Below, one piece after another: positions 2,546 to 46,469 of a DNA stretch of 64,000 bases (the first letter of the stretch is position 1; every line of letters starts with the position of its first letter). The DNA is from a virus, in the IMG/VR virus record IMGVR_UViG_3300028800_000081, positions 1 through 64,000 of that record, one strand, 5' to 3'. The position numbers were made by a program, and so were the translations under genes. The notes under the pieces were generated by a model, which searched no databases, had not been told where the DNA came from, and saw nothing but the letters and a program-made list of their open reading frames with translations.

Positions 2546-2553
2546 GGAAAATC

Positions 2554-20931: not shown

Positions 20932-21246
20932 TTACCAATCACCCCCGGCATTTCGCTGTTCCTTGATTGCGATGTCAGCGGCGAACTTCTGCCGGGCTTC
21001 GGCGTTGATCCTATAACCCTTGCTCGCGCACCATTGCGGGAATGTACGCGGATTGATGTAGATGCGTCTGACGGCCTTACCGCCGCTCTTAAAGTCATTC
21101 TCAGCGCGCTCAAATGTGCGGACAAAATCTTTCCAGAGCGGCGGCAGTTCGTTGGCGTCTTCGCAGATAGCGAGGAAGGCGTCGTAATCTTCCTCCCGAC
21201 ACCACGGAAGGCCGAGGGGAATTAGCTTTGGATCAAATGCTGGCAT
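20932..21246 (-). CDS. IS passenger hypothetical protein
   Basis: 104 aa; GGAG SD on the minus strand. Confidence 0.6.
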   Translation of the reverse strand: MPAFDPKLIPLGLPWCREEDYDAFLAICEDANELPPLWKDFVRTFERAENDFKSGGKAVRRIYINPRTFPQWCASKGYRINAEARQKFAADIAIKEQRNAGGDW

Positions 21247-21290
21247 TGTTTTGGAACTCCTAGGCGTTTGGCGATTCCTAGGATAACGGC

Positions 21291-21320
21291 GAAGCCCACC
21301 GGAGTCATTCGGTGGGCTTC
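21291..21320. terminator. Hairpin downstream of the transposase
   Basis: GAAGCCCACCG-N8-CGGTGGGCTTC. Confidence 0.45.
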
Positions 21321-21359
21321 TGCCTCTTCTGCCAGCGCAGGAACGCTTTCGCGTGCTGC

Positions 21360-22310
21360 TTAGGCGTTCGCGGTTTTGTTAGTCTGATGATATTGCAGGC
21401 GCTTGCCCTTCGCTCCCGCCAATAAGGCGTCGGCGCGCGCTGCATCCGTCATGTGACGGCCATTATATCGGAAATCGAACTCGGCAAGATAACGTGGCAA
21501 ATGTTGCTCGCTGATGCTGTGGAACGTGCCGTAAACGCCGCGCTTCAGGATCGCAAAATAGCTTTCAATCGTGTTGGTATGCATGAAGCCGCCAAGGCGC
21601 ACATATTCGTCCGCCGAATGATTGACCGTGCCGTGACCGGAGAACTCCGCACCGATTGACGGATAAACCGTGCTTTCGTCCGTCATCAGGTACGACTTGC
21701 GGCTTGCGTGCTTCACGATGATAGGGCGAAGCGTCTTGGAGTTCACGTTCGCAACATGGAAGGAGCGGACATGTCCGCCGTCACGCTCGACAAGGGCGAA
21801 CACGGGAGACTTTTTCGGGATCGGGCCAAACGCCTTATTCTTCGCCTTGCCTCCGATATACGTTTCGTCACCTTCAACGACCTTGTTCTTACCGCCTAAA
21901 GGGCGCGGCTTCTTCGCAATCGGGCATTCCCGCAAACGATGCGCGAGGAACCAAGCCGCCTCGTAACTGATATCCAGCATCCGATGCAGTTGAAGGGCGC
22001 TAATGCCTTTCTTGCTCGCCATCATCAGGTGCGAGGCCATGACCCATTTTGTCAGCGGGATATGGCTGCGCTCCATGACGGTTCCGACCGTGACGCTGAA
22101 GGGCTTGCGGCAATCTTTGCAGTTGTAAACGCCCGGGCGGGTGCTCTTCCCGGCAAGCTTTGTGATCCGGCCCCCGAACTGGCCACAACGCGGGCACGTA
22201 GCCCCGGCGTCCTTCCACAGGACGCTTTCCAGATGTTCCCGCGCCTTGTCCTCATCATTGAAAATGGGGTTGCGGATATCGAACGATTGCTTGGGGAATT
22301 TCTTGGACAC
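21360..22310 (-). CDS. IS1595-family transposase
   Basis: Zn ribbon CPRCG..CKDC; DETYIGG, TDE, NHS, HTNTIES, YLAEFDFRYN. Confidence 0.95.
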   Translation of the reverse strand: MSKKFPKQSFDIRNPIFNDEDKAREHLESVLWKDAGATCPRCGQFGGRITKLAGKSTRPGVYNCKDCRKPFSVTVGTVMERSHIPLTKWVMASHLMMASKKGISALQLHRMLDISYEAAWFLAHRLRECPIAKKPRPLGGKNKVVEGDETYIGGKAKNKAFGPIPKKSPVFALVERDGGHVRSFHVANVNSKTLRPIIVKHASRKSYLMTDESTVYPSIGAEFSGHGTVNHSADEYVRLGGFMHTNTIESYFAILKRGVYGTFHSISEQHLPRYLAEFDFRYNGRHMTDAARADALLAGAKGKRLQYHQTNKTANA

Positions 22311-29782: not shown

Positions 29783-30058
29783 GTTCCTACTTGTCGACGT
29801 CGTCGAAGATTGATCGGTTGCCGTTTTCGTCCAACATGGTGCCGTCCAGAGCGAACATCGGCCGTTCGTTCGGATGAAGCTTTACCTCCCAGTCTCCGCA
29901 GAATTCTTCGGCCTGCGTTGGCGGGAAGGCGGATCGCGTTTCGAACACGCGGCCGGTCTCGTGGTCCCAGGATGTGTCTATGACGGCTGGCGACCGATGG
30001 TGGCATTCGCCGTTCGCCCACCACCGGCACGTCCCGCACGTCAGCCCCTGGATCGCGC

Positions 30059-30937
30059 TCATGCGCCCCTCGTGCTGGCTTCTTCGAAAATGACGGCGCC
30101 GCGGATTTCACGTCCGCCCGATTTCACGAAAGCCCTGACTGCCTGCTCGAGCCCAGCCAGCGGGATGTGCTGACGAAGCTTCTCAAGGTCCAGCGTGGCG
30201 CGGTCCAAATCACGGAACGTCCACTCCGTCTTGAGGCTCGAAACGCCTCCATGACCTCCGCGCGCGCGGGAAAGGTCCGCAAGATTGGCCGATGCCGACT
30301 TGTCCGCGGCCGCGCGGGCCTCGGCTGCGACCCGTTCCGCCGCCGCCGCTTCGTCGGCCCGCGCCTTCGCTAGCGCGGCCGCTCGGTCAGCCTTCTCGCG
30401 CTCTTCGACGTTCCGCTTGCGCGCCGCCGCACGCGCCGCCTCGTCGGCCGCCTGCTGTGCCCTGAGGGCTTCAGCACGCCGCTTGTCTTCCTCGGCTCTG
30501 GCCTTCGCTGCCTCGGCTTCGCGAATGTGCCGCTCTTCCTCGGCAATCTTCAGCTTGTACCGGGTCTGGGCCGACTGGACGCGCTCCTTCACGCCGGGGG
30601 GGGCGTTCTTCGTCGGGGCCGTTAGCTTGTCCATCGGCCCGCGAAAGAAGGCGTGCACGCGGCTCGCCTCGGTATCGTAGGGCTCCTTCTCGCCCTCGCG
30701 GGCAGCATCGAGCGCCTTCACGCAAGCCTGTATCTGCTTGACGAATTCGGTCGCCTTGCTGTCCGCTTCCGGGCTGTCGATCTCCGGCATACGCGATTCC
30801 GCGGCGATCAGATCCTCGGCGCGCTTCGTCAGTTCTAGGTGCGTCAGGGTCAGATGGTCGTCTAGCTCGGCTCCCTTGCGGAGACCGGCGAGAATGTTGT
30901 GGCCGAGGCCGGTATCGGCTGCGGTGGCGTCGTTCAT
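30059..30937 (-). CDS. Coiled-coil phage protein
   Basis: Long Ala/Glu/Arg helix; C-terminal GGREIRGAVIFEE. Confidence 0.7.
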   Translation of the reverse strand: MNDATAADTGLGHNILAGLRKGAELDDHLTLTHLELTKRAEDLIAAESRMPEIDSPEADSKATEFVKQIQACVKALDAAREGEKEPYDTEASRVHAFFRGPMDKLTAPTKNAPPGVKERVQSAQTRYKLKIAEEERHIREAEAAKARAEEDKRRAEALRAQQAADEAARAAARKRNVEEREKADRAAALAKARADEAAAAERVAAEARAAADKSASANLADLSRARGGHGGVSSLKTEWTFRDLDRATLDLEKLRQHIPLAGLEQAVRAFVKSGGREIRGAVIFEEASTRGA

Positions 30938-30946
30938 GAATTCCTC

Positions 30947-31375
30947 CTAGAACGGGGTTGGTAGCTTGTTGAAGTCGATAGGGCGCTCCGGTTGAGACAC
31001 AGGATCGTTCGGATCGTTCTGCTCGCACCACCGCTGGTTATCCATCATGTAGTCGTATTCCTCGCGCGGGATCGGGTGCGAAGCGAGATAGGTCCACTGA
31101 TCGGCTGGATCGCGCGCTTTGCCGCCGACTTCGCATTTGAGAACTTCGTCCGATGCCAGCGAGCCGTCTTCATCGGTCTCCGCTTCAAGCCAGATGCGCG
31201 CCGCGACCCACGGCCCATTGCGGACAAGGCGGCGGCGGTAGAATCCTGGCTGCGGCTCGTCTGTAATCCGCACCCCTGCCGCATCGCACCCCCGCATGGA
31301 GCCGTTGCGCTCATGGTATTCGAGCGCGCGCGTCCACCATGCGAGGGATTGCGACTCGGGGGTTGGGCTACGCAC
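30947..31375 (-). CDS. Hypothetical phage protein
   Basis: EPQPGFYRRRLVRNGPWVAARIW; operon packing. Confidence 0.65.
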   Translation of the reverse strand: MRSPTPESQSLAWWTRALEYHERNGSMRGCDAAGVRITDEPQPGFYRRRLVRNGPWVAARIWLEAETDEDGSLASDEVLKCEVGGKARDPADQWTYLASHPIPREEYDYMMDNQRWCEQNDPNDPVSQPERPIDFNKLPTPF

Positions 31376-31679
31376 TCGGGGCTGGTTCCTTCATCAGATT
31401 ACGGAACGCGGCCACGAGCGCGGCAATGTCCTCGTCCGACTTGCCGTAGAAAAACAGCACCACGTCCGATCCGTCCTTGTCCTCGATGCGGACAGAATGC
31501 GCCTGCGTGCTAATGTGGCTGTAGTGACTGACCTTGGCGGGCCAGTGTATTGAAGCGTTCATGCTCATTTCGCCACCACATAGAACACGATCACGATCAC
31601 AAATATTGCCAGCGCTGCCATGACGGCCGCTGCGTCTTCCAGTGCGGAAGGCTTGGGCGGGAGAGGTTCGTAGGTCATG

Positions 31680-31982
31680 TCAGGAACCCTTTGCCTTGGA
31701 GATGGCGGCATGCATCTCTTCGGTCAGCGCGGCGATTGCTTCGGTAGAATTCCCGCCCAATCTGGCGCACGCTTCGAGCTTGCGGACCGCGATATCCAGC
31801 GCCCAAAGCAATTCCGGCGCGGCTGAGCACAGGCGGGCATTCTCTCGCGCATCCGGCCCGTGAAACGTCGCAATGATGAATCCGCCGTTGTCGTTTGCGG
31901 AATGATTGAGCCGTTTGGCGCGCACCGTCGGCTCGTGGCTGACGTTGTGGGCGTCGACCCACGGTCCGGGTGTCACGCTCAT
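31680..31982 (-). CDS. Hypothetical phage protein
   Basis: TPGPW...NARLCSAAPELL family motif. Confidence 0.7.
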   Translation of the reverse strand: MSVTPGPWVDAHNVSHEPTVRAKRLNHSANDNGGFIIATFHGPDARENARLCSAAPELLWALDIAVRKLEACARLGGNSTEAIAALTEEMHAAISKAKGS

Positions 31983-32218
31983 GCCAGCACCAGCCGCACC
32001 TTGGCCCGCTTGGCTTCAAACCATTCGCCGAGCACCCTCAGATGGTGCGCACGCTTGCCTTCACGGGCGTCGTCATCCACAGCCATGTCGCAGAGCAGCG
32101 AGCCGATTTCCTGCGCCGGGACGCCGACCGATTCGCCGTCGCCCCGCTCGATCGTCGCCTGGCTGAAGTCGCGACCTATGCGGCAGGAAAGCGCGTAGAT
32201 ATGGGCATTTTCTGGCAT
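31979..32218 (-). CDS. First gene of the leftward operon
   Basis: AAGGGA SD; overlaps the next start. Confidence 0.5.
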   Translation of the reverse strand: MPENAHIYALSCRIGRDFSQATIERGDGESVGVPAQEIGSLLCDMAVDDDAREGKRAHHLRVLGEWFEAKRAKVRLVLA

Positions 32219-32299
32219 TGCGTGTCCCTTCGAGAAAGGCGCTTCGAACTCGCCCTTGCTGGAATAGCATAGGGGGCCCTTGCTCGCCATGCAAGGGGG

Positions 32300-32316
32300 T
32301 ATTGCACAAAGCAATA
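32300..32316. promoter_or_regulatory. Operator-like inverted repeat in the divergent control region
   Basis: TATTGC-ACAAA-GCAATA between divergent operons. Confidence 0.45.
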
Positions 32317-32522
32317 GATTGCCTCAATGTGATTCGACCCAAAGAAGCCCCGATGGATTGTGGGTTTCCTGCCAATGATAACGATGGAGGCGGAAATGAG
32401 CGGGATGCAAGAGGCGAGGAAAAGCCCTTGAAAGCCGCGATACACTCTCAGAAGTGCTCGATATCCTAGAGCGGGGCGCGGCGATTGGATGCCGCGCCCG
32501 CGCATTTCGTGAAAGATCGTAA

Positions 32523-32711
32523 ATGACACCCAAGCAGCTCCTATCCCAGATTAACGCTCACCTGAAAAAGACGAAGGAGAGCCCTTCGGCATTCGGCAAG
32601 CGCGTTCTGAACGATCCAGCGTTCGTGCTGAAGCTAAAGCGGAAACCCGCTCGGAAGCCATTCCCGCACACCGTCGACAAGGTGCTTGCGGCGATAACCC
32701 CAACCCAATGA
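32523..32711 (+). CDS. Cro-like small HTH protein
   Basis: SPSAFGKRVLNDPAFVLKLK; first rightward gene. Confidence 0.65.
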   Translation: MTPKQLLSQINAHLKKTKESPSAFGKRVLNDPAFVLKLKRKPARKPFPHTVDKVLAAITPTQ

Positions 32712-32724
32712 AGGATTGAACCAC

Positions 32725-33342
32725 ATGGCAGCAAAACGAGGAACGCGCGCTAAGACGCCCGCGAAGGGCAAAGCAAAGCGCGGAGGCAAAAAATCACGCG
32801 CGGAATCCATGACCGGCAAGAAAGCCGCCGAAGTCGAGGGCCGCACGGGCGAACTGGAACTCAAGGAAGTTGAGATCGACGACGGCGACTTTGACATGCA
32901 TTTCCGGGCACTGAAGGGCGCAACGGATCGCATGAAAACTGCGAAAAACTTGTTCGATGGCTGCTGCAAAGCCGCGAAGAAGGTCAGCCCGGAACTGCTC
33001 GACGCCGTGAAGCGCGCGATCAAGTTCGAAGGCATGGACACCGAGGACATCAAGCGGCAGTTGCAGATCGACGGCTATGTGCTGCGGAAGACCGGGGCCC
33101 CGATCCAAATTACGTTGCATGACACGCTTCTCGGGGACGTTGATGACGCCGCCGAGGCGCGCGGGCGCAAGGATGCGGAAGGCGGGAAGTTTGCCAGTAA
33201 TCCATACCCGGCCGGCTCCTCGCTGCACGAGCGCTATAAGATCGGCTGGGGCAAAGTGTCGGCCGAGCGGATCGCCGGCGCCGACGAGCATCCCAACAAT
33301 GGTGCCATCGAACTCCGCGAAGAAGCCGAGGCTGCGGAGTGA
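32725..33342 (+). CDS. Hypothetical protein with an RMF-like C-terminal motif
   Basis: ARGRKDAEGG...NPYP...YKIGW. Confidence 0.6.
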   Translation: MAAKRGTRAKTPAKGKAKRGGKKSRAESMTGKKAAEVEGRTGELELKEVEIDDGDFDMHFRALKGATDRMKTAKNLFDGCCKAAKKVSPELLDAVKRAIKFEGMDTEDIKRQLQIDGYVLRKTGAPIQITLHDTLLGDVDDAAEARGRKDAEGGKFASNPYPAGSSLHERYKIGWGKVSAERIAGADEHPNNGAIELREEAEAAE

Positions 33343-33860
33343 TCCTGGCCTTGGACCTGTCGACCGTCAAAACCGGGTTTTCCTTCGGCGGCCAGAATGA
33401 CGGCGCGCCGAAGGGGGGCGTGTGGCGCATGCCAGGCGCTGGGGCCGACGTGTTCGATCGCACGCTTGGTGGCATTTACGAGTCCGTCCTGATGATGGCG
33501 CGCGCGATCAAGGCCGAGCGCGTCTGCATCGAAGCCCCGCTCCTGCTCAATGACAGCGAGCACGGGGCGGCGATCACCATGGCGCTGGTCCAGCTTACCG
33601 GGGCGGCGCGCGCGGGGGCGCACAATGCCGGGTGCCTCGTGAAATGCGTTGCCGTCTCGACGGTTCGAAAGCATTTTATCGGGATAGGCAACCTTCCGAG
33701 CAAGAAGGCAAAGCAGGCCGTCATGGACCGGTGCACGCTGTTCGGATGGCCCTACGAGGACGACAACCAAGCCGACAGCAACGCGGTCTGGAGTTGGGGT
33801 ATGTCGACCTACTATCCAAAGTGGAGTCCGCGCTCGACGCCTCTCTTCGCCAAGCGATAG
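33339..33860 (+). CDS. ruvC: RuvC-like Holliday junction resolvase
   Basis: ILALDLS.TG, CIEAP, DDNQADS. Confidence 0.8.
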   Translation: MILALDLSTVKTGFSFGGQNDGAPKGGVWRMPGAGADVFDRTLGGIYESVLMMARAIKAERVCIEAPLLLNDSEHGAAITMALVQLTGAARAGAHNAGCLVKCVAVSTVRKHFIGIGNLPSKKAKQAVMDRCTLFGWPYEDDNQADSNAVWSWGMSTYYPKWSPRSTPLFAKR

Positions 33861-33868
33861 GAGATCAA

Positions 33869-33924
33869 ATGCCAGCCTCCCGAAACGACCAATGGTCCGA
33901 AGAGGACAAGGAAACGCTCCGGAA
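33869..33924 (+). pseudogene. 5' fragment of a GcrA-like HTH gene interrupted by the TnpB unit
   Basis: WSEEDKETLR resumes after 35233 as NYWP, with SAS..KRLGL nearby. Confidence 0.45.
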
Positions 33925-34038
33925 GAAAAGTGCGCCGTTAACTATCTGTTTGACATTTCTTCGCCGCCGCCCGATAAAGTTCGGGCTGATCCGACGTTTC
34001 CGCGTCGCCCAGCCCTGACCTTGACGGAGAGTAAGTCC

Positions 34039-35202
34039 GTGTCGGCTGACACCAACATAGCCACCCAATTTTTGACGTACAAGACGCGTCTGTTGCCCTC
34101 GCGCGGCCAGCACGACAAGATGCGCGCGGCCTTGGATCACACTCGCGATTTGTACAACGCAGCTCTCGCCGAGAGGATTGACTGCTATCGCAAGACTGGC
34201 AAAGGCCGAAGCTGGCCAGACCAATGTAAGGGCCTGACCGAATTACGCGCTGAGTCGGCTTGGACAATTTATCCTGTTTCTCTGCAACGATGGCCGCTGA
34301 AACAACTCGATTTGGCTTTTGCGGCATTCTTCCGGCGAGTCAAATCTCGTAACGGTCGGCCCGGCTTTCCGCGTTTTCGTGGCCGCGAATGGTTCAAGAC
34401 ATTCGGCTTCTCGGATCGTTTGGGCTGGGCAGTGAAAGGCTCTCGCCTTCGTATGAAGGGCATCGGGTCCGTTCGGTTGCATTTGCACCGCCCGCTGCCA
34501 TCAAAACCAGTCGCCTGCAAGGTGAAGCGCGAAGGCCAAAACTGGTACGCGCTGTTGACTGTCGAAATTCCGTGCGTTGCTGAACATCGCGGCCCCGCAG
34601 TCGGGATCGACGTTGGTATCACTACGTTGGCAGCGCTTTCGACCGGTGAATTGATTGCCAATTCTAGGCCGTCCCGCCTGGCGCAGGCAGAAATTCGGCG
34701 TCGTCAACGCGCGCTCGCGAGGTGCAAGCGTGGGTCCAATCGGAGACGCAAGATTAAGGCGAGGCTGGCGGATCAGCATGCGAAAATCGCTCGCTCTCGC
34801 GAGACCTATTTGCATCAGATTACGGCCTCTATTGCCGCGCGGTTCAGTTTGATTGCGGTAGAGAAACTGAATCTCAAGGGCCTCGCTGGCGGAATGCTGG
34901 CGAAGGAAGTTCACGATGTTGCATGGGGGCGCTTCAATCAATTTCTCCGCTACAAGGCCGCAAGAGCCGGTGGCAGTGTGATCGAAGTTGATCCAAATTA
35001 CACTTCGCAGATATGTCCAGAATGCGGCGTCATCAAGCGGAAGGAACTCTCTGAGCGGGCGCACTCGTGCCCGTGCGGTTGTGTGCTTGACCGCGATGTT
35101 GCTGCCGCAAAGGTCATTCTGCAGCGGGCCGGGAATGGTCCGTGGACACATAACGTGCCGGATGCGGCGCGTGTGTCCAGAAAGGTGCGGAGGGCTGCCT
35201 GA
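34039..35202 (+). CDS. tnpB: TnpB RNA-guided endonuclease (IS200/IS605 family)
   Basis: GIDVG, VEKL, CPECG/CPCG, DRDVAAA: intact RuvC D-E-D triad. Confidence 0.93.
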   Translation: MSADTNIATQFLTYKTRLLPSRGQHDKMRAALDHTRDLYNAALAERIDCYRKTGKGRSWPDQCKGLTELRAESAWTIYPVSLQRWPLKQLDLAFAAFFRRVKSRNGRPGFPRFRGREWFKTFGFSDRLGWAVKGSRLRMKGIGSVRLHLHRPLPSKPVACKVKREGQNWYALLTVEIPCVAEHRGPAVGIDVGITTLAALSTGELIANSRPSRLAQAEIRRRQRALARCKRGSNRRRKIKARLADQHAKIARSRETYLHQITASIAARFSLIAVEKLNLKGLAGGMLAKEVHDVAWGRFNQFLRYKAARAGGSVIEVDPNYTSQICPECGVIKRKELSERAHSCPCGCVLDRDVAAAKVILQRAGNGPWTHNVPDAARVSRKVRRAA

Positions 35203-35245
35203 TGTCAGTCAACCGTATAATTCCCCTCCGGAACTACTGGCCATT
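35125..35245 (+). ncRNA. Putative omegaRNA scaffold and guide of TnpB-1
   Basis: Hairpin loop GGGAAT pairs with ATTCCC at 35220-35225; TGGACACA/TGTGTCCA stem. Confidence 0.55.
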
Positions 35246-35806
35246 TCTCCGGCATTGACCATGAGCGCCTCCCGGAAAGGTCTGAAGCGTCTCGGGCTTC
35301 GCCGGTATATCGTGGAAGGCCCGCGTCCGATGGTCATAGAGCGGGACCGCCCCTGGCGCTGGTTTGTTAGGCCGGCGTCCTATCCCAACGCGCCCGGCGG
35401 GTTCTTCTCGCAGACATTCCGGCGCCTTCGGTGCGCGCGGGCCTATGCGGAAGCGCAGGCGGGGATCGAACCATACCCCTATCTTGATATTCCTGTCTGT
35501 CTTCGCCGCTGGAAGCCGGGAGCGCGGACTTGACGAATCTCGCGGGACAGTCATTAACTATTCGCGTCGGGGCGACGGTCTCGGCAAATGCGGCTGTCAG
35601 CCAGTCTCAGAGCGTGAATGCTGCAAAGCACTCCCTTCGAGGCTGAGACTGGCGGCAGTTCCTTGAAGGGGAAACGACATGCCTCAATCACTCAAAGACG
35701 CACTTGAACGCCTAGCGGTTGCGGGCCGGTATCGTCCGCCTGGCGACATTCTGGCTGGCCCGCGCCGTCCAGAGCCGTTCCGCTGGTGGGTCGATAGGGC
35801 GAACTG

Positions 35807-36112
35807 ATGGGCAAACAATCCTCGGTCAATTTCAGTGACAAGGCGAAGCGCGCGCGCGGCATTGAGCCGAGCGATGCGCTGAAGGAAAACGAGCGGCTGC
35901 ATCTCGAGCTGATGGCGGCACAGCGGGCCGTGACGGCCAAGGAGGCCCTGATGCGGGGCCGGCTCGAACGCATCCGTTCCGACGTCCGCGCGGCCGTTGA
36001 GGCTATGGACGCCGGACGTCGCGGCGAAGGCATGCAGATCCTCCGCGCGCTTGTGCGGCCCAAGGACGGCAAGCTTTCCAGCGGTGAGCCCGCAGAGCCG
36101 GACGCGGCATGA
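35807..36112 (+). CDS. Hypothetical coiled-coil protein
   Basis: Operon packing. Confidence 0.55.
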   Translation: MGKQSSVNFSDKAKRARGIEPSDALKENERLHLELMAAQRAVTAKEALMRGRLERIRSDVRAAVEAMDAGRRGEGMQILRALVRPKDGKLSSGEPAEPDAA

Positions 36113-37302
36113 GCGAAGATCAACCAAAATTCGAATATCGGTACATCCAGACTCGTCCGTGCGAGTGGTCCGTTTTTTTGATTTTCGACGACGAGTCGAA
36201 CGTCTGGCGCCGCGTCGCCGTCTTTGTGAGTGAGGCGCGCGCGAAAAGCTACGCCGAAATCGAGCAGATGCGCGACGAGTGGGAAGGTGACAAGGGCGGC
36301 GAGGAAGGCGAACTGCTGTGCCAGATAACGGCGCGCGAACTCCCGGCCTCCCGCGTCACGCCTGATCGCATGATCCGCCGCGAGAGCATCGCGCACACCA
36401 GGATCGAACGTACCGAGGAAATCAGCCGAGCCGCTGTTGCGCTATTAACGCGCGAGGATCTCGCTGAGCTTCCCGCCGCGGTCATTGCGGAATTGAGCCC
36501 TGCCGCGCAGGCAGTTGCACTTTCACCCCCGGAACCTGCAATTGAGGCCACGCCTGTTGCTGTTAAAGGCAACACTCCAGAGCCGCCCGACGACGGCGCC
36601 GAGGAATATCCGCCCCTGCCAGAAGCGATCGACTGCGCGACGCTTGAGCCGCTGACGGCGCTTCAGTTCAAGGTGCTTTCCGCCGTCCTCATGACGCGCG
36701 GCGCGGAAACATCCGGCGTCGCCTTGGACAAGGCGTCGGGCGTCATTGGCGCGTCGACACACACTCTTTCGCTCGCGAAAAAAGGCTACATCAGAATCCG
36801 CAAGCTTGGAAAGCATCGCTACGCCTATGACGGCCTGACGTTCGGGGCCCCGCGCGTAGGCGTGTACGATTCGAAAGCTGGGAAATGCGTCGGAAAATAT
36901 GACGCGCCAGCCTCATTGCCTTCCAAAGCCGTTGAGCACCGACCTGCAGAGGTTGCAGCGGCTACCAAACCAGCGCAGAAATCAGAACCGGCGCGGGTCG
37001 CACCTATAAGTATCAGCCCCTCACCTGCAAGTAAGCCGTCTCACGCCCGCCCGACGCCTCCCAACGGCACACGCTTCCCCATCGCTGGCGACCCCGAGCA
37101 TGGCCGCAGCGCGCTCGACGCCGACGATGGCCGCATCCATGTCATCTCCTACCTGACGCGCAAGGGTCACACGGTGTCGCTGGCTGAAGGTGGCTGGCGG
37201 GTGGATGGGCGGATCAAGCGCGTCGACGAAGCACTGGAGTTGATCAACAGCTACCGCGCCAAGGCGGAACTTCCGCCCGCGCTCGCGAGCATGCTGGCAT
37301 GA
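36109..37302 (+). CDS. Hypothetical protein with a probable winged-helix domain
   Basis: LTALQFKVL...SLAKKGYIRI; overlaps the dnaB start. Confidence 0.6.
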   Translation: MSEDQPKFEYRYIQTRPCEWSVFLIFDDESNVWRRVAVFVSEARAKSYAEIEQMRDEWEGDKGGEEGELLCQITARELPASRVTPDRMIRRESIAHTRIERTEEISRAAVALLTREDLAELPAAVIAELSPAAQAVALSPPEPAIEATPVAVKGNTPEPPDDGAEEYPPLPEAIDCATLEPLTALQFKVLSAVLMTRGAETSGVALDKASGVIGASTHTLSLAKKGYIRIRKLGKHRYAYDGLTFGAPRVGVYDSKAGKCVGKYDAPASLPSKAVEHRPAEVAAATKPAQKSEPARVAPISISPSPASKPSHARPTPPNGTRFPIAGDPEHGRSALDADDGRIHVISYLTRKGHTVSLAEGGWRVDGRIKRVDEALELINSYRAKAELPPALASMLA

Positions 37303-38804
37303 ACAAGCCGGAGAAAGACTTCAGACGATCGCTGCCCTGTTCGATCGAGCTTGAACAGGCCGCCATCGGGGCCTGTTTGGTCGACAACCGGCTGATCGAA
37401 GTCCTCGCCGCCGACCTTGAGCCCGAAGCTTTGTTCGACCCGCTTCACCAGCGCATCTATGGGCTCATCCTCGCGCTCTCGGCCGAAGGCAAAGTCGACC
37501 CGCTGATCCTCAATTCCGTGATGGCGCACGATGACGGCCTCAAGATCGTCGGAGGCATCGGCTACCTCGCGAATCTCGCCCAGGCGGCACCGGCTCGCCC
37601 GAACGTCACGGAATACGCGCGCGCGCTCAAGGAACTCGCCCAACGCCGCCGGCTGATCGAGATAGGCGAATCGCTTCTTGACGACGCCTATGCGGCGACG
37701 GGCGATCGGTCCTCGGATGAACTCGTGACCCGCCACGCCGACGCGCTGCTCCGAATCGGGGAGGGGCGAAAGACCGGGACGAAGCACCTTGCCGACGTTG
37801 TCACGGCCAGCCTCACGCAAGCCGAGAAGCATCTGGCGGGCGAGAAGATTGCGGCCGTCGAGACAGGTATCGGCCCGTTTGATCGCGCCATAGGCGGCCT
37901 ACAGCCGGGCGACCGGGTAGCGATCGCGGCTCGCACCGGAATGGGCAAGAGTTTGACCGCCTCGGCAATCGCCAACGGACTGGCGCGGAATGGTGCACCG
38001 GTCTTCATCGCAAGCGGTGACATGCGGGCGAAGCAATGGGGCGATCGCGCGGCGTGCGACGTTGAGTCGTTCCTGCATCCAGGAGAGCCCTACATTTCGT
38101 ATTCGAAGTTCCGGGCCGGCCTGCTCTCTAACAAGGAAATCTATCGCCTGGCGCTCGCGCAACACGAGATGCAGGCATGGGCGATCGACATAGACGACAA
38201 TCCGACGATCAACGTGGCGACGTTCCGCGGCCGGGTGCGCGAGATGGCGCGGCGGTATCCGGGCCAGCAAGGCGTTGCGATCCTGGACTTCATCCAGAAG
38301 GTCAAGCCCGAGAAGGGCGGAAAGCGCGACCAGCGGCGCGACGAAGACCTGACGGAGATATCCTACGACCTCGGCGATATCTGTGGAGAACTCGGCTGGT
38401 CGCTGATTGCCTTGGTGCAGCTCAAGAACAAGGCGACCGACGCCAAGGGACAGCTTTCCGAGGCGCCGCCCAGCGTTGCCGATATCCGCGAATCGGGCGG
38501 GATCGAGATGGCCTTCGACATCATCGTCAGCCCGTTCCGCAAGGCGTTTTTCATCGAGCGCCGTGAGCCTGAAGGCAAGCACAACGCCGGCGGCCCGCCG
38601 CCTGAATGGATCTCGTGGAACGCCGAAATGGCGGAGCATCGGAACAAGCTTCGCCTGCTCGGGTGGAAGAATCGGGACGGCAACGCGGCGGTGCTCAATC
38701 TCGATCTGTGGTGCAACCCCGCGACCGCGACGGTCTGCGAATACGCGCCGGAACGCAGCACGCAACAGACAGCCGACCTTCTGGCGTTCGGAGCGCCGGG
38801 GTGA
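37299..38804 (+). CDS. dnaB: DnaB-like replicative helicase
   Basis: LPCSIELEQAAIG, Walker A AARTGMGKS, LDFIQ, DIRESGGIE. Confidence 0.92.
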   Translation: MNKPEKDFRRSLPCSIELEQAAIGACLVDNRLIEVLAADLEPEALFDPLHQRIYGLILALSAEGKVDPLILNSVMAHDDGLKIVGGIGYLANLAQAAPARPNVTEYARALKELAQRRRLIEIGESLLDDAYAATGDRSSDELVTRHADALLRIGEGRKTGTKHLADVVTASLTQAEKHLAGEKIAAVETGIGPFDRAIGGLQPGDRVAIAARTGMGKSLTASAIANGLARNGAPVFIASGDMRAKQWGDRAACDVESFLHPGEPYISYSKFRAGLLSNKEIYRLALAQHEMQAWAIDIDDNPTINVATFRGRVREMARRYPGQQGVAILDFIQKVKPEKGGKRDQRRDEDLTEISYDLGDICGELGWSLIALVQLKNKATDAKGQLSEAPPSVADIRESGGIEMAFDIIVSPFRKAFFIERREPEGKHNAGGPPPEWISWNAEMAEHRNKLRLLGWKNRDGNAAVLNLDLWCNPATATVCEYAPERSTQQTADLLAFGAPG

Positions 38805-39841
38805 GCGCCTACTACAATGAAATCGACCCCTATGCAGCACAATGGCTGCGCAACCTTATTGCTGCGGGACACATTGCCGATGGTGAAGTTGACGAACGAT
38901 CAATCATCGACGTTCCCGCCGCCGATCTCCGCGACTTCACGCAATGCCATTTCTTCGCTGGAATCGGCGGGTGGTCTGTCGCACTCAGGCTCGCAGGATG
39001 GCCCGATGATCGACCTGTTTGGACAGGAAGTTGCCCCTGCCAGCCCTTTAGCGCCGCCGGAGCGGGCAAGGCGGCCGATGACAGCCGTCACCTGTGGCCT
39101 GCGTGGTTTTCTCTCATCTCCGTCGCACGCCCTGCAATCGTCTTTGGAGAGCAGGTTGAAGCGGCAATTGGATGGGGTTGGCTCGACGCTGTTTTCGCTG
39201 ACATGGAAGGCGCGGGCTACGCCTGCGGGGCGTCCGTACTTCCAGCTTGTGGCATCGGCGCGCCGCACATCAGACAGCGAACTTGGTTCGTGGCCGACGC
39301 CAATGGCGGGGACGCCGGCGCAGCGGGGCTACAACGAAGCGGGGAACACGGACAGCGGGCGCAAGACGGTCGCGCTGGTGAGTTCCTGGCCGACTCCGCG
39401 CGCGGAAGACAGCGAGAGTTCGGGAATGCGTCACGGCCGCGGAGTGGCGGACACTCTGACGGCGGTATCGAGCCTAGCGGCTTGGACAACCCCGCAAGCG
39501 CACGACACGCACAAGCGCGGCGCGGGGAATCGCCTCAATCCGAAGGGCGGCGGGGGATGTTTGGCGTCGGAAGCGATCCTCGCGAGTTGGGCGACACCAA
39601 CGGCGGACGACGCGGACAATGTGACGAGGGCGAGCGGCCAATATCAATCGCTAACGCGACAGGCGATGACGCTTGGTCAAATCTCGAATGGCTCGCCTGC
39701 ACAGACGGAAGATCGCGGCCAGTTGAGCCCGGGACATTCCCGCTGGCTCATGGGATACAGCGTCGAACATCTAAGCTGCGCGCCTACGGCAATGCCATCG
39801 TCCCGCAAGTCGCGGCGGAGTTCATAAAGGCGTTCGCGTGA
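38801..39841 (+). CDS. C5-cytosine DNA methyltransferase (alpha-like chain)
   Basis: FFAGIGG, GSCPCQPFS, GEQV, PHIRQR, YGNAIVPQVA. Confidence 0.9.
   Translation: MSAYYNEIDPYAAQWLRNLIAAGHIADGEVDERSIIDVPAADLRDFTQCHFFAGIGGWSVALRLAGWPDDRPVWTGSCPCQPFSAAGAGKAADDSRHLWPAWFSLISVARPAIVFGEQVEAAIGWGWLDAVFADMEGAGYACGASVLPACGIGAPHIRQRTWFVADANGGDAGAAGLQRSGEHGQRAQDGRAGEFLADSARGRQREFGNASRPRSGGHSDGGIEPSGLDNPASARHAQARRGESPQSEGRRGMFGVGSDPRELGDTNGGRRGQCDEGERPISIANATGDDAWSNLEWLACTDGRSRPVEPGTFPLAHGIQRRTSKLRAYGNAIVPQVAAEFIKAFA
38817..39827 (+). CDS. Overlapping +1 frame ORF, putative methyltransferase beta chain (true start uncertain)
   Basis: Four WxTP repeats and the motif IX-like LSPGHSRWLMGY. Confidence 0.6.
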   Translation: MKSTPMQHNGCATLLLRDTLPMVKLTNDQSSTFPPPISATSRNAISSLESAGGLSHSGSQDGPMIDLFGQEVAPASPLAPPERARRPMTAVTCGLRGFLSSPSHALQSSLESRLKRQLDGVGSTLFSLTWKARATPAGRPYFQLVASARRTSDSELGSWPTPMAGTPAQRGYNEAGNTDSGRKTVALVSSWPTPRAEDSESSGMRHGRGVADTLTAVSSLAAWTTPQAHDTHKRGAGNRLNPKGGGGCLASEAILASWATPTADDADNVTRASGQYQSLTRQAMTLGQISNGSPAQTEDRGQLSPGHSRWLMGYSVEHLSCAPTAMPSSRKSRRSS

Positions 39842-40070
39842 CGTTCCCTCTTGCATCGCGCCCGTTGTGATTCGTCTCGCGGAGGCACAAGACATAGCGG
39901 CTTGCGATTTTCCGAATCTGGGCCAATCGTGAGGGGCTTGACGGGCGCGGTCGACTTGCCGCACATTCCGTCCGCTTGATGGCCCTAAGCAAGCCATCTG
40001 TTCGCGGTTGTCGGCCGGGCCTGGGCGTTCCAGGTCAGGCTCGGCGGCAGCTCCCTGGAACCGTAGGAAC

Positions 40071-45280: not shown

Positions 45281-46423
45281 TTGGCTAAGCAAGCCGTACC
45301 AAAACTCATCCGAACGTACAAGTTCCGATTGCTGCCGCGCAAGGCGCAGCACGTCCGTTTGCGCGCTGCGCTTGATCACACACGAGATATTTACAACTCC
45401 GCGCTGGAGTCCCGCATCTCTGCCTACCAGAAGCTCGGCAAGACGATGGGCTATGTGCGCCAGTGTCGTGAGCTTACGGAATTGCGCGGCGATCCCGGTT
45501 ACACGGAATTTCCAGTCGCTCTCCAGCGCTGGCCGTTGAAGCGGCTTGACGACGCGTTCGCCGCATTCTTCCGCCGTGTGAAAGCAGGCGATAGCCCTGG
45601 CTTTCCTCGCTTCAAGGGCCGCGACTGGTTCAAGAGCTTCGGCTTTTCTGATCGCTATGGCTGGAAGCTAGACGGCTCGCGCCTCTACATGAAAGGTATC
45701 GGTCGCGTGAAGGTGCATATGCATCGTGCGTTGCCATCCGCGCCGATTTTGTGCCAGATCAAACGCGATGCGAATGGTTGGGCTGTTCTACTCGTCTGCG
45801 AGGTAAGTGCCGAGCCATTGCAGGAAACTGGCAGAAACATCGGCATCGACCTCGGCATAACGTCGTTCATCGCCACGTCGGACGGCGAGACGGTGCCAGG
45901 GTTTCACGCGGCGAGGCGTGCGCAAGCGCAGATGCGCAGGCGTTCGAGGGCGCTTGAAAGATGCAAGCGGGGTTCGCGCAACAGGCGGAAGGCGAAGACT
46001 TGCGTTACGGCGGCGCATGAAAGCATCGCCAACGAGCGCCGAACGTTCCTGCATCAAGTGGCAGCGAAACTTGTGCGCGAAAATGACATGATCGCCGTCG
46101 AAAATCTAAACGTCAAAGGTCTTGCGCGCGCCATGCTTGCCCGCGATGTCAACGATGCTGGATGGTCCACCTTCACACGCCTCCTAATCGAAAAGGCTGA
46201 GAGAGCCGGTCGGTTGGTCGTAAAAGTCGATCCTAGATACACGAGCCAAGCCTGTTCCGGCTGTGGGGTTATCGTGCCGAAGGCGCTAGGCGTCCGCGTG
46301 CACGATTGCCCAGATTGCGGATTGCGTTTGGATCGTGACGTAAACGCAGCAAAAAATGTGCTGCACAGGGCGGTAACGCGCCCTGACGCGCTTCAATGCC
46401 GGGAGTCACTGGTATGCGCGTAG
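45281..46423 (+). CDS. tnpB: TnpB RNA-guided endonuclease (IS200/IS605 family)
   Basis: GIDLG, VENL, CSGCG/CPDCG, DRDVNAAKN: intact triad. Confidence 0.93.
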   Translation: MAKQAVPKLIRTYKFRLLPRKAQHVRLRAALDHTRDIYNSALESRISAYQKLGKTMGYVRQCRELTELRGDPGYTEFPVALQRWPLKRLDDAFAAFFRRVKAGDSPGFPRFKGRDWFKSFGFSDRYGWKLDGSRLYMKGIGRVKVHMHRALPSAPILCQIKRDANGWAVLLVCEVSAEPLQETGRNIGIDLGITSFIATSDGETVPGFHAARRAQAQMRRRSRALERCKRGSRNRRKAKTCVTAAHESIANERRTFLHQVAAKLVRENDMIAVENLNVKGLARAMLARDVNDAGWSTFTRLLIEKAERAGRLVVKVDPRYTSQACSGCGVIVPKALGVRVHDCPDCGLRLDRDVNAAKNVLHRAVTRPDALQCRESLVCA

Positions 46424-46469
46424 AAATGTCGGGCAACCGATTCGTTACCGTATGTCTCGCGTTGCGCTT
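46366..46469 (+). ncRNA. Putative omegaRNA scaffold and guide of TnpB-2
   Basis: Loop GGTAACG pairs with CGTTACC at 46443-46449; ACGCGC/GCGCGT stem. Confidence 0.55.

What the first reader, a model, noticed from the sequence alone, without database searches (positions are those of the whole stretch)
33917..35245. Transposase-less TnpB-1 whose predicted guide matches the empty allele of the gene it interrupts
Seen: an intact RuvC triad and no tnpA anywhere in the window. CTCCGGAA occurs on both sides of the unit (33917-33924 and 35226-35233), the second copy starting exactly after the pseudoknot strand ATTCCC. Joining the flanks restores WSEEDKETLRNYWP, a GcrA-like first helix. Known: TnpB guides derive from the 3' flank and cut empty sites. 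Inference: the unit behaves as an RNA-guided homing endonuclease against co-infecting relatives. The filled allele keeps only 8 nt of target next to the putative TAM (..AAACG). A direct repeat is atypical for IS605 peel-and-paste insertion.
Basis: partly seen in the sequence, partly recalled or inferred. Interest (0 to 1): 0.72.

Follow-up and report, generated by a model that had tools for sequence, protein, structure and literature searches.

The report
TnpB nuclease inside an IS1595-type transposon
A soil-phage gene for an RNA-guided DNA cutter (TnpB) lies in the worn remains of a cut-and-paste transposon with inverted ends and an 8-base target duplication, an arrangement so far described for its eukaryotic cousins (Fanzor), not for bacteria or their phages.

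Summary
The sequence facts hold: there is an intact TnpB (34039-35202), CTCCGGAA lies on both sides, and the 73-kb phage has no IS605/IS607 tnpA. The interpretation needs changing.

- **The repeat is a target-site duplication.** Relatives of this TnpB (72-75% identical) in other phage contigs are bounded by 22-24-nt terminal inverted repeats (GGGAATTATATACTTGAC...) and 8-bp duplications. The same ends bound IS1595-family DDE transposases in 71 of 80 phage loci, and also many mini-elements with other cargo.
- **The window's copy is stranded.** Its right end survives (17/22) because it forms the 3' strand of the last helix of a covarying omegaRNA scaffold. Its left end has decayed (11/22), and the cognate transposase is absent. 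This is a non-autonomous IS1595-type element with TnpB as passenger, not an IS605 unit.
- **The 'interrupted GcrA-like gene' is not supported.** The rejoined frame stops after 26 codons. The downstream gene is an intact, separately conserved 90-aa gene.
- **The guide match is true by construction.**
- **Homing remains an inference.** Homing against element-free relatives is reasonable. It is helped by a CG dinucleotide 5' of the duplication in 4 of 4 TnpB elements (10% in controls). No empty allele and no RNA was seen.

The parts
33339..33860 (+). Upstream phage gene, a RuvC-like Holliday-junction resolvase (context)
   Evidence: PHROG 159, E 8e-13. A homologue in locus L170 abuts the small-gene homologue directly.
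33869..33916 (+). First 16 codons of a short ORF into which the element inserted. The ORF is 26 codons in the rejoined allele and 49 codons (to 34018) in the filled allele.
   Evidence: Read. GGAG lies 6 nt before the ATG. No family hit. Whether it is a real gene is unknown.
33912..33916 (+). AAACG, a candidate TAM directly 5' of the left duplication (CG at 33915-33916)
   Evidence: CG lies 5' of the duplication in 4 of 4 TnpB elements that have a duplication (window, L018, L021, L023). In control elements it is 12 of 122 flanks.
33917..33924 (+). Left copy of the 8-bp target-site duplication, CTCCGGAA
33925..33946 (+). Decayed left terminal inverted repeat
   Evidence: 11 of 22 matches to the family consensus. 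A fraction of 0.0056 of window 22-mers reach that. A PWM scan does not detect it.
33983..34016 (+). Conserved stem-loop in the left, non-coding part (5' leader of tnpB)
   Evidence: RNAalifold on 6 sequences including TnpB-2: 11 of 20 predicted pairs show compensatory change. Its role is unknown.
34039..35202 (+). tnpB-1, 387 aa, GTG start, TGA stop
   Evidence: Pfam, PHROG 506 E 2e-84, PDB alignment. dN/dS is 0.11-0.19 against five relatives.
35109..35225 (+). 3' part of the omegaRNA scaffold: four helices, overlapping the end of the ORF
   Evidence: Covariance model R1 scores 111.6 bits. In the 7-sequence alignment 91% of cells are paired and 17 of 32 pairs show double changes. 0 of 500 shuffles reach that, and slid controls give 30-41%.
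35204..35225 (+). Right terminal inverted repeat, which is also the 3' strand of the last omegaRNA helix
   Evidence: 17 of 22 matches to consensus. PWM score is 14.1 bits for 35200-35225, against shuffle maxima of 3.3-9.1. Its deviations from consensus are compensated in the 5' strand of the helix.
35226..35233 (+). Right copy of the 8-bp target-site duplication, CTCCGGAA
   Evidence: Conservation among 6 relatives ends at 35225.
35226..35241 (+). Predicted 16-nt guide (duplication plus the next 8 nt)
   Evidence: Inferred from the IS605-type rule that the guide follows the scaffold. There is no second site with <=3 mismatches in the window or the whole record.
35261..35533 (+). Downstream intact small gene (90 aa, starts MSASRKGL), not part of an interrupted gene
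   Evidence: 5 homologues of 53-72% identity all start at the same Met. In six related phage loci it follows other genes directly.
21360..22310 (-). IS1595-family DDE transposase gene elsewhere in the window, not the cognate one
   Evidence: PF12762 hit, E 5e-38. 38% identical to the transposase that carries the matching ends. No matching inverted repeat lies beside it.

Best explanation
SHOWN
- The unit 33925-35225 is a non-autonomous element of the IS1595 family of DDE (cut-and-paste type) transposons. It carries a TnpB gene and its omegaRNA as passenger.
- It inserted between a RuvC-like gene and a small conserved gene of a phage replication module, inside a 26-codon ORF. The insertion duplicated 8 bp (CTCCGGAA).
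- The element is now stranded. Its left inverted repeat has decayed, and the transposase whose elements carry these ends is not in the phage.
- The TnpB gene, a 5' leader hairpin and the omegaRNA scaffold are still under constraint. The right inverted repeat persists because it forms one strand of the last scaffold helix.

INFERRED
- The omegaRNA ends with a guide copied from the right flank, made of the duplication plus about 8 nt.
- TnpB then cuts the element-free allele of related phages, next to a TAM that ends in CG.
- Recombinational repair from the filled genome copies the element in (RNA-guided homing or marker exclusion during co-infection).
- The filled allele escapes cutting because only the 8 duplicated bases match.
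For: 1. **Relatives have inverted ends.** L004/L018, L006/L021, L019 and L023 (72-75% aa identity) carry terminal inverted repeats. These are the longest inverted repeat in L004 (22 nt, 86%) and in L006 (23 nt, 83%). Each end matches the 22-nt consensus with 0-4 mismatches.
2. **Relatives have duplications.** Perfect 8-bp duplications abut those ends in L018, L021 and L023.
3. **The same ends bound other elements.** A 16-nt stretch of the end is found in 66 IMG/VR loci. Of the 20 complete elements I delimited (235-1773 bp), 16 have a perfect 8-bp duplication and one has 7 of 8. Their cargo includes an N6_N4 methylase and a PAPS-reductase domain.
4. **The ends belong to IS1595 transposases.** One such element (L162) encodes DDE_Tnp_IS1595 (E 3e-47) plus Zn_ribbon_IS1595. 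Of 80 loci encoding relatives of that transposase, 71 have the inverted-repeat pair. Of 70 assessable, 51 have an 8-bp duplication with <=1 mismatch.
5. **This matches the published family.** IS1595 elements are described with an N-terminal Zn finger and usually 8-bp duplications; the conserved terminal GG is stated there for the related Merlin elements (passages of PMC8101967). ISApl4 makes A/T-rich 8-bp repeats (passages of PMC12561309).
6. **The window's ends.** The right end matches 17 of 22 and is the only PWM hit. The left end matches 11 of 22 and lies at the expected distance from the ORF.
7. **The omegaRNA covaries.** The window's deviant right-end bases are compensated in the paired strand. 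A TnpB only 35% identical (L102a) keeps the same terminal helix and end.
8. **Purifying selection.** dN/dS is 0.11-0.19 with dS above 1. The catalytic triad is intact.
9. **TAM candidate.** CG lies 5' of the duplication in 4 of 4 elements, against 12 of 122 control flanks. From those counts I calculate p about 9e-5 for CG specifically, and about 1e-3 for any shared dinucleotide.
10. **The guide has no second target.** No other site in the 73-kb genome has <=3 mismatches.
11. **Homing is established for IS605-family TnpB.** I saw this only in the abstracts of PMC10055086 and PMC10690162, as shown in the listing.
Against: - **Left end.** It is only weakly recognisable (11 of 22), so insertion by transposition at this very site rests mainly on the 8-bp repeat and its position.
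- **Exceptions among relatives.** L019 and L102a have both inverted repeats but no duplication. L022 has lost its left end.
- **No cognate transposase.** None is present in this phage or in the 5 other records I searched that hold relatives of this TnpB (4 of its clade and L102a). Two phages carry only distant IS1595-family genes without matching ends.
- **Homing is untested.** No empty allele was seen; the contigs of 4 rhizosphere runs that bridge either junction all show the filled form. There is no RNA data.
- **TAM evidence is thin.** It rests on four insertions and was noticed after the fact.
- **Mechanistic gap.** A cut-and-paste excision would not recreate the exact empty site, so the IS605 'donor-site restoration' logic does not carry over. 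Only homing into naive genomes does.
- **No promoter.** A sigma-70 promoter scan found none in 33700-35500.
- **Source caveat.** IMG/VR records are predictions, and some may not be phages.
Confidence: 0.65

Rival explanations
1. This is an IS200/IS605-type (IS1341-like) TnpB-only unit that inserted by peel-and-paste into a GcrA-like gene and depends on a Y1 TnpA supplied in trans.
For: TnpB-1 is closest in sequence to the IS605-family ISDra2 TnpB. A conserved hairpin lies in the left non-coding part, as IS605 left ends have. No transposase lies inside the unit.
Against: - The clade has terminal inverted repeats and 8-bp duplications. The review PMC13565253 (passage seen) says the IS200/IS605 family lacks both.
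- The same ends bound IS1595 transposases.
- No Y1 or serine transposase is present in the genome.
- The rejoined ORF has 26 codons, there is no GcrA hit, and the downstream gene stands alone.
Confidence: 0.04
2. The anatomy is the same (a stranded IS1595-type passenger element), but TnpB no longer spreads the element. The phage keeps it as a weapon or regulator. For example, it may destroy co-infecting relatives that lack the insertion, without gene conversion, or act on some other target.
For: The left end has decayed and no cognate transposase is present, yet the ORF and omegaRNA are conserved. In L022 the gene is translationally coupled to an upstream phage gene and the left end is lost. 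A phage intron endonuclease used in interference between co-infecting phages is listed in the references of PMC13565253.
Against: The only sequence in the genome that matches the predicted guide is its own flank. The catalytic residues are intact, which argues against a nuclease-dead regulator. Cutting a naive allele while a filled template is present would lead to conversion anyway, so sequence alone can hardly separate this model from homing.
Confidence: 0.2
3. The TnpB-omegaRNA module with its right end reached this site by recombination, not by transposition here. CTCCGGAA on the left is then a chance or microhomology match, not a target duplication.
For: The left inverted repeat is not detectable by PWM. 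CTCCGGAA occurs at two other places on this strand in the window. L022 shows that left ends can be lost or replaced.
Against: The left copy lies exactly where the left end should begin (114 nt before the start, against 103-118 in relatives). The following 22 nt still match the consensus at 11 positions (p 0.0056). CG precedes it as in the three relatives that have clear duplications.
Confidence: 0.07
4. The element is an inert relic. Neither TnpB nor the omegaRNA functions any more, and the conservation only reflects recent arrival.
For: There is no expression data. No sigma-70-like promoter was found. The ends have decayed.
Against: The frame is open over 387 codons with the triad intact. The window-specific changes in the right end are compensated in the opposite strand of the helix, which implies selection on the RNA after divergence. 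dN/dS is 0.11-0.19.
Confidence: 0.04

Closest known systems
ISDra2-type TnpB/omegaRNA (OMEGA) modules of the IS200/IS605 family
   Same: The protein aligns over its full length (E 3e-43 to 8h1j/8exa) with the D-E-D triad and zinc-ribbon region. The omegaRNA scaffold overlaps the 3' end of the ORF and stops at the element boundary. The guide is expected from the right flank. Homing into empty sites is the published role (abstracts of PMC10055086 and PMC10690162 in the listing).
   Different: The carrier element has terminal inverted repeats and an 8-bp duplication. There is no Y1 TnpA. The target site is not fixed by the transposase, so a TAM is met only by chance at insertion. The last scaffold helix is built from the transposon's inverted repeat.
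Fanzor1 and non-IS607 Fanzor2 in eukaryotic DDE transposons and large eukaryotic viruses
   Same: A TnpB-family nuclease rides as passenger in non-autonomous inverted-repeat transposons that make target duplications, including copies in viral genomes. [quoted passage not shown] (Passages of PMC10711439 and PMC3627910; the latter includes an IS4-type element with 8-bp duplications in an Ectocarpus virus.)
   Different: Here the host is a bacteriophage and the protein is a typical bacterial TnpB, 387 aa and nearest to ISDra2. The carrier is an IS1595-family element. The variable 8-bp duplication cannot be part of a fixed scaffold, so it should be the first half of the guide. PMC10711439 instead reports duplications folded into the scaffold.
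IS1595 family insertion sequences (ISNwi-type; relatives of eukaryotic Merlin)
   Same: The inverted repeats begin with GG(G), the duplications are 8 bp and mostly A/T-rich, and the transposase has an N-terminal Zn ribbon plus DDE_Tnp_IS1595 (passages of PMC8101967 and PMC12561309). From memory, ISfinder lists the ISNwi1 group with ends like 'ggnnatTAT' and with passenger genes. I could not check this. The 2009 family paper appears only as a reference in PMC12561309.
   Different: The window's copy has no transposase, a decayed left end and a TnpB/omegaRNA passenger. I found no description of a TnpB passenger in this family.
Free-standing homing endonucleases of phages (T4 Seg/Mob type, 'intronless homing')
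   Same: The proposed behaviour is the same: cut the allele of a co-infecting relative that lacks the gene, then get copied in by repair (passage of PMC13565253 seen).
   Different: Target recognition here would be by RNA guide plus TAM, not by protein. No experimental evidence exists.

Membership tests
TnpB / OMEGA RNA-guided nuclease | HTH, OrfB_IS605 (RuvC) and zinc-ribbon (TNB) domain architecture | tested here: met
   Pfam PF12323 (1e-7), PF01385 (1e-21) and PF07282 (2e-22).
TnpB / OMEGA RNA-guided nuclease | RuvC catalytic triad D-E-D | tested here: met
   D191, E275 and D353 are invariant in alignment A3. They lie in the motifs aligned to the top PDB hit, an ISDra2-like designed nuclease; the ISDra2 entries cover the same residues.
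TnpB / OMEGA RNA-guided nuclease | Structured omegaRNA scaffold overlapping the 3' end of the ORF and ending at the element boundary | tested here: met
   91% of cells paired, 17 of 32 pairs with double changes, 0 of 500 shuffles reach that. Conservation ends at 35225. No Rfam family matches.
TnpB / OMEGA RNA-guided nuclease | Guide transcribed from the right flank; TAM-dependent cleavage | not testable with these tools
   No RNA run holds the locus. The TAM is inferred only from CG in 4 of 4 elements.
IS200/IS605 family (IS1341 group) | No terminal inverted repeats and no target-site duplication | tested here: not met
   The clade has inverted repeats of 22-24 nt and 8-bp duplications. The window has a duplication and a right inverted repeat.
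IS200/IS605 family (IS1341 group) | Y1 (HUH) TnpA in the element or the genome | tested here: not met
   PF01797: 0 hits in the 73-kb record; the control genomes did give hits.
IS607 family | Serine-recombinase TnpA; no inverted repeats or duplication | tested here: not met
   PF00239: 0 hits. The ends are as described above.
IS1595 family, non-autonomous derivative | 8-bp target-site duplication | tested here: met
   CTCCGGAA occurs twice, abutting the element. The same holds for 3 relatives and for 51 of 70 transposase-bearing elements.
IS1595 family, non-autonomous derivative | Terminal inverted repeats shared with elements that encode DDE_Tnp_IS1595 | tested here: inconclusive
   In the window the right end matches 17 of 22 (clear) and the left end 11 of 22 (decayed). 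Relatives L018, L019, L021 and L023 fully meet the feature, as do 71 of 80 transposase loci.
IS1595 family, non-autonomous derivative | Cognate transposase available in trans | tested here: not met
   The only IS1595-family gene in the genome is 38% identical to the cognate type and has no matching ends. No locus holds both TnpB and the L162-type transposase within one element.
GcrA-like regulator (the gene said to be interrupted) | GcrA domain (PF07750), or any homologue spanning the junction | tested here: not met
   No hit at E<=0.1. The rejoined frame stops after 26 codons. The downstream gene starts at its own Met in all homologues.

The most novel reading that the evidence does not exclude
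A whole lineage of phage-borne TnpB/omegaRNA modules has been captured by IS1595-type DDE transposons. It comprises at least 52 protein clusters at >=69% identity, plus a 35%-identical branch with the same ends. Their omegaRNA has rebuilt its terminal helix out of the transposon's inverted repeat. Because the DDE transposase picks sites with little regard to a TAM, only insertions that land just 3' of a ..CG TAM gain RNA-guided homing between co-infecting phages. Such copies persist and keep homing even after the transposon ends decay, as in this window. This would be the prokaryotic counterpart of Fanzor capture. It would also be a natural case in which a guide is half target duplication and half flank.
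Probability: 0.4. Interest if true: 0.75.

Novelty: new variant of a known kind. Interest (0 to 1): 0.6.

Why it matters
- **It breaks the textbook pairing.** Prokaryotic TnpB is taught as a component of IS200/IS605 and IS607 elements, which have neither inverted repeats nor target duplications. There its TAM equals the transposase's target, so every new copy is automatically 'armed'. Here the same kind of nuclease rides a DDE transposon in phages, and that coupling is broken.
- **It gives a natural test of what TnpB does for an element.** One can ask whether TAM-adjacent insertions are enriched, and whether the nuclease module outlives the transposon ends.
- **It shows convergence with Fanzor.** An omegaRNA can absorb a foreign transposon end into its scaffold, as reported for eukaryotic Fanzors. 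This suggests that such captures are an old and repeated route.
- **It bears on phage biology.** It points to RNA-guided homing or exclusion between co-infecting phages.
- **It has a practical use.** The clade offers a compact TnpB with a possibly short, C/G-type TAM.
- **A by-product.** The survey uncovered a large family of IS1595-type mini-elements that ferry small cargo genes between phage genomes.

Tried and rejected
- **Rfam** (E<=1, 30000-40000): no family, so the omegaRNA could not be named.
- **Sigma-70 promoter and terminator scan**, 33700-35500: no promoter. I therefore make no promoter claim for the TTGACA...GATAAA stretch I saw by eye.
- **Relatives of the RuvC-like neighbour** in viral contigs: none.
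- **Genome-contig scan with the TnpB alignment**: 11 loci, all distant (24-37% identity) and, by their record titles, mostly archaeal MAGs. None has the ends or the omegaRNA; the CM search covered 8 of these 11 among 84 loci.
- **Empty-site searches.**
  - The exact 20-nt left flank plus duplication gave 0 hits in viral contigs.
  - Relatives of the HNH gene next to the L021 insertion reach only 43-55% identity, which is too distant to show an empty site.
  - Contigs of 4 rhizosphere runs show no joint across the element. Contigs cannot show absence.
- **RNA evidence**: no RNA holder is listed among the sequencing runs.
- **Cultured phages**: 384 records hold TnpB relatives, the best at 40% identity. 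None belongs to this clade.
- **PWM and mismatch scans** of the window and the whole record for further inverted repeats: only the right end of TnpB-1 is found.
- **L022**: I considered that it shows a duplication (CTCGCGAC on both sides). I dropped it. Its left end is missing, the match is not at a defined boundary, and a chance 8-mer match within the roughly 200-nt stretches I compared by eye is likely.
- **The window's own IS1595-family transposase as mobiliser**: rejected, at 38% identity and with no matching ends.
- **Rows dropped before the CG count**: L019 and L102a (no duplication), L022 (no left end), L020 and L029 (cut by the contig end).
- **Count correction**: one of the 52 'duplications' (L209) is an artefact of a locus end, hence 51 of 70. 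Some loci are the same element in two records (for example L191/L193, L201/L202, L204/L205, L227/L228, L239/L242). L115 and L131 are also one element.
Full report
**What is at the coordinates**

The window is the first 64 kb of a 73,132-base IMG/VR virus record that CheckV rates complete. It holds the following features.
- **tnpB-1.** Between 33917 and 35245 there is one real gene, tnpB-1 (34039-35202, + strand, 387 aa). The GTG start is placed by alignment with relatives.
- **Domains and catalytic residues.** Pfam finds the three TnpB domains. PHROG 506 'transposase' scores E 2e-84. The protein aligns end to end with the solved ISDra2 TnpB (8h1j, 8exa; E 3e-43), with D191, E275 and D353 in place.
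- **A longer ORF is an artefact.** The 436-aa ORF from ATG 33892 in the mechanical list is read-through of the left non-coding part.
- **The repeat.** CTCCGGAA stands at 33917-33924 and 35226-35233, as reported.
- **Neighbours.** Upstream is a RuvC-like resolvase gene (33339-33860). A DnaB-like helicase gene lies further downstream (37299-38804). The unit therefore sits in a phage replication module.
- **A second TnpB.** TnpB-2, 55% identical, lies at 45281-46423.

**The repeat is a target-site duplication of a DDE transposon**

Three viral contigs, later four viral and several metagenome contigs, encode TnpBs 63-75% identical to TnpB-1.
- **Boundaries.** Aligning their ends with the window shows that similarity stops exactly at ...TCCC on the right. 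It stops about 105-120 nt before the start codon on the left.
- **Inverted ends.** In L004/L018, L006/L021, L019 and L023 these two boundaries are inverted copies of each other. They are the longest inverted repeat in L004 and in L006: 22 nt at 86% and 23 nt at 83%. Each end matches the 22-nt consensus with 0-4 mismatches.
- **Duplications.** In L018, L021 and L023 the 8 bases outside the two ends are identical: CTCCCTAA, AACGAAAG and AAATGATA.
- **This is not IS200/IS605.** A 2026 review states that the family has neither inverted repeats nor duplications (PMC13565253, passage).

**Who owns these ends**

An exact 16-nt stretch of the end occurs in 66 IMG/VR loci. By my estimate some single hits are chance, but most extend to the 20-nt core with 3 or fewer mismatches.
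- **Mini-elements.** I delimited 20 complete elements of 235-1773 bp. Sixteen have a perfect 8-bp duplication, one has 7 of 8, and three have none.
- **Varied cargo.** They carry small ORFs, an N6_N4 DNA methylase, a PAPS-reductase-domain protein, and a distant TnpB (L102a).
- **A transposase.** In L162 the cargo is a 305-aa protein with DDE_Tnp_IS1595 (E 3e-47) and Zn_ribbon_IS1595.
- **Survey of that transposase.** A search for its relatives found 160 confirmed places in viral contigs, of which 80 were kept. Of those 80, 71 have the inverted-repeat pair (6 or fewer mismatches of 22 per end). By my reading of the table the pair brackets the gene in 70. Of the 70 assessable, 51 show an 8-bp duplication with at most one mismatch.
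- **Agreement with the literature.** IS1595 elements are described with a Zn finger plus a DDE domain and 8-bp duplications; the terminal GG is stated there for the related Merlin elements (PMC8101967, passages). ISApl4 makes A/T-rich duplications (PMC12561309, passages).
- **Conclusion.** The TnpB-1 clade is a set of non-autonomous IS1595-type elements with TnpB as passenger. No locus holds TnpB and this transposase inside one element.

**State of the window's copy**

- **Right end.** 35204-35225 matches the consensus at 17 of 22 positions. In the PWM scan the 26-nt stretch 35200-35225 is the only hit in the window, at 14.1 bits against shuffle maxima of 3.3-9.1.
- **Left end.** The 22 nt after the left CTCCGGAA match at 11 of 22. 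A fraction of 0.0056 of window 22-mers do as well. They lie 114 nt before the start codon, inside the 103-118 nt range of relatives.
- **Reading.** The left end is where it should be, but it has decayed.
- **Transposases in the genome.** There is no Y1 transposase and no serine recombinase. There is an IS1595-family gene at 21360-22310(-). It is 38% identical to the L162 type and has no matching ends.
- **Other TnpB-bearing records.** Five were searched. One (the phage of L021) has an IS1595-family gene, again of another type and without these ends.
- **Conclusion.** The element is stranded.

**The RNA**

From about 35109 to 35225 the seven available sequences fold into four helices (six of the close clade plus L102a).
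- **Covariation.** 91% of cells are paired and 17 of 32 pairs show changes on both sides. None of 500 column shuffles reaches that. Pairing falls to 30-41% when partners are slid by 1-3 columns.
- **The end is part of the scaffold.** The 3' strand of the last helix is the right inverted repeat itself. Where the window's end departs from the consensus (CCGTAT for GTATAT), the 5' strand has changed to match (GTGCGG for ATATGC).
- **Why the right end survives.** The RNA holds it while the left end decays. This also implies that the RNA was under selection after this lineage split off.
- **An old association.** L102a's TnpB is only 35% identical in protein yet has the same helix and end.
- **Distribution of the model.** A covariance model of the scaffold finds TnpB-1 at 111.6 bits. 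With filters off it finds a weak but full-length match after TnpB-2 (46351-46458, 22.1 bits), where the terminal helix is shortened. It finds nothing in 84 loci of more distant TnpBs.
- **Protein constraint.** dN/dS against five relatives is 0.11-0.19, with dS above 1.
- **Leader hairpin.** A hairpin in the 5' leader (33983-34016) also covaries. I cannot say what it does.

**Guide and TAM**

Conservation ends at 35225, and the 8 bases that follow differ in every copy. They cannot be scaffold, so the guide should begin with the right duplication. In the window that is 35226-35241, if it is 16 nt long as I recall for ISDra2.
- **Only one target in the genome.** That 16-mer has no other site with 3 or fewer mismatches in the 73-kb genome.
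- **TAM position.** In an element-free allele the target would be preceded by the bases now lying 5' of the left duplication. These are AAACG (window), CCCCG (L018), TGACG (L021) and CGACG (L023).
- **Control.** In 61 cargo-free or transposase-bearing elements with perfect duplications, CG takes that position in 12 of 122 flanks.
- **Significance.** From those counts, four of four has p about 9e-5 for CG. For 'any shared dinucleotide' it is about 1e-3, which is the fairer figure because I saw the pattern after the fact.
- **Interpretation.** This fits a TAM ending in CG, and selection for insertions that happen to land next to one. It does not prove it.
- **Self-protection.** The filled allele keeps the TAM plus 8 matching bases and then runs into the left end.

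**The 'interrupted gene'**

- **Rejoined frame.** Removing 33925-35233 joins the short ORF that starts at 33869 to the right flank in frame. The ORF totals 26 codons.
- **Downstream frame.** The long downstream frame is in another phase. It is a gene of its own, from ATG 35261 to 35533 (90 aa). Five homologues at 53-72% identity all begin at that Met.
- **Synteny in relatives.** In six related phage loci that gene directly follows a methylase-like ORF (by eye) or a RuvC-like gene. In L170 the RuvC-like homologue overlaps its start, with no spacer ORF.
- **No GcrA.** There is no GcrA domain in the genome.
- **Conclusion.** The insertion lies in an 80-nt spacer that contains a short ORF of unknown standing.

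**How it most likely works, and what is only inferred**

- **Shown.** The class of the carrier element, the duplication, the decay of the left end, the absence of a cognate transposase, an intact and constrained TnpB, and a covarying scaffold that uses the right end.
- **Inferred.** Transcription of a flank-derived guide; TAM-dependent cutting of the naive allele; and copying of the element into cut genomes during co-infection. The last is the behaviour published for IS605-family TnpB. I saw only the abstracts of PMC10055086 and PMC10690162, in the listing. It is analogous to intronless homing by phage Seg/Mob endonucleases (PMC13565253, passage).
- **A difference from IS605.** A cut-and-paste excision would not recreate the precise empty site, so TnpB here can help only by invading naive genomes, not by restoring the donor.
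- **No direct evidence.** Contigs from four rhizosphere runs bridge both junctions in the filled form and show no joint. No related phage with the site was found.

**Comparison and novelty**

- **What it works like.** An IS605-type OMEGA module, carried like a Fanzor. Fanzor1 and some Fanzor2 genes sit in eukaryotic DDE transposons that have inverted repeats and duplications, also in large viruses. There the inverted repeat is predicted to be part of the guide-RNA scaffold (PMC10711439 and PMC3627910, passages).
- **What the literature says of prokaryotes.** Both Fanzor papers and the review place prokaryotic TnpB in IS200/IS605 and IS607 only.
- **Literature searches.** My full-text searches returned nothing whose title or abstract start (or, for two papers, searched passages) describes a prokaryotic or phage TnpB in an inverted-repeat, target-duplicating or IS1595 element. 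The term sets were: TnpB with terminal inverted repeats and target site duplication; TnpB with bacteriophage and homing; TnpB with IS1595; TnpB with DDE transposase and passenger; and two IS1595 subgroup searches. The library lacks most subscription papers and all supplements, so this is not proof of absence.
- **Size of the clade.** 52 protein clusters at 69% identity or more, nearly all metagenomic, several on contigs of 73-100 kb. Named relatives at 57-60% identity occur in Sphingopyxis, a Sphingomonadales MAG and Tundrisphaera.
- **Rating.** I rate it a new variant of a known kind.

**Verdict**

- **Trivial.** The guide matches the empty allele by construction.
- **Wrong.** The unit is not an IS605-type element, and it does not interrupt a GcrA-like gene.
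- **Right.** The atypical direct repeat, the scaffold end and the ..ACG motif.
- **Where the interest lies.** The carrier element and the way the omegaRNA is welded to its end.

I give an interest score of 0.6. My confidence in the anatomy is about 0.85. My confidence in the whole explanation, including homing, is 0.65.

Noticed in passing
window 45281-46423 (+), RNA-like match 46351-46458: A second TnpB (380 aa, 55% identical to TnpB-1) has the same leader hairpin. It gives a weak full-length match to the omegaRNA model (22.1 bits with filters off), in which the terminal helix is shortened. Its inverted repeats are no longer recognisable and I found no duplication. Its element would end near 46458.
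   Followed up: partly
window 20932-22310 (-): An IS1595-family transposase gene (21360-22310, 315 aa, PF12762 E 5e-38) sits with a 103-aa ORF of PHROG 4753 beside it (20932-21246). By eye there are weak end-like sequences near 20801 and 22377, but no scan supports them. This is a second, different IS1595-type insertion in the same phage.
   Followed up: partly
loci L102-L167 and L174-L253 (IMG/VR contigs): A large family of IS1595-type elements (235-2587 bp) in predicted phage genomes shares one inverted repeat and makes 8-bp, mostly A/T-rich duplications flanked by G/C-rich bases. Many lack a transposase and carry one small cargo gene, for example an N6_N4 methylase in L108 and L153, or a PAPS-reductase domain in L140. 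They look like cargo-carrying miniature elements that shuttle genes between phages.
   Followed up: partly
L106 7108-8584: Nested insertion: a 476-bp element with duplication CTTGAATA sits inside the left inverted repeat of a 1477-bp element of the same family.
   Followed up: no
L022 about 2470-3700: In this relative (75% identical) the left end is gone. The TnpB start codon overlaps the stop of an upstream phage ORF (ATGA), as if the nuclease had been absorbed into a phage operon. The right end and the omegaRNA are kept.
   Followed up: partly
L154 4328-4567: A C-terminal TnpB fragment (54% identical to residues 305-365), followed by a right end, lies directly after a 267-bp mini-element. 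It is probably a TnpB element truncated by a later insertion.
   Followed up: no
window 33983-34016, and the same place in L018, L019, L021, L023 and TnpB-2: A conserved stem-loop lies in the 5' leader of tnpB, with compensatory changes in 11 of 20 predicted pairs. It could be a relic of an IS605-type left-end hairpin or a regulatory structure.
   Followed up: partly
window 35261-35533; loci L168-L173: This is a small conserved phage gene family (67-91 aa, starting MSASRKGLKR or MNPRKGLKR, with an ARAYAE motif) that has no Pfam or PHROG match. It sits after RuvC-like or methylase-like genes in several soil phage contigs.
   Followed up: partly
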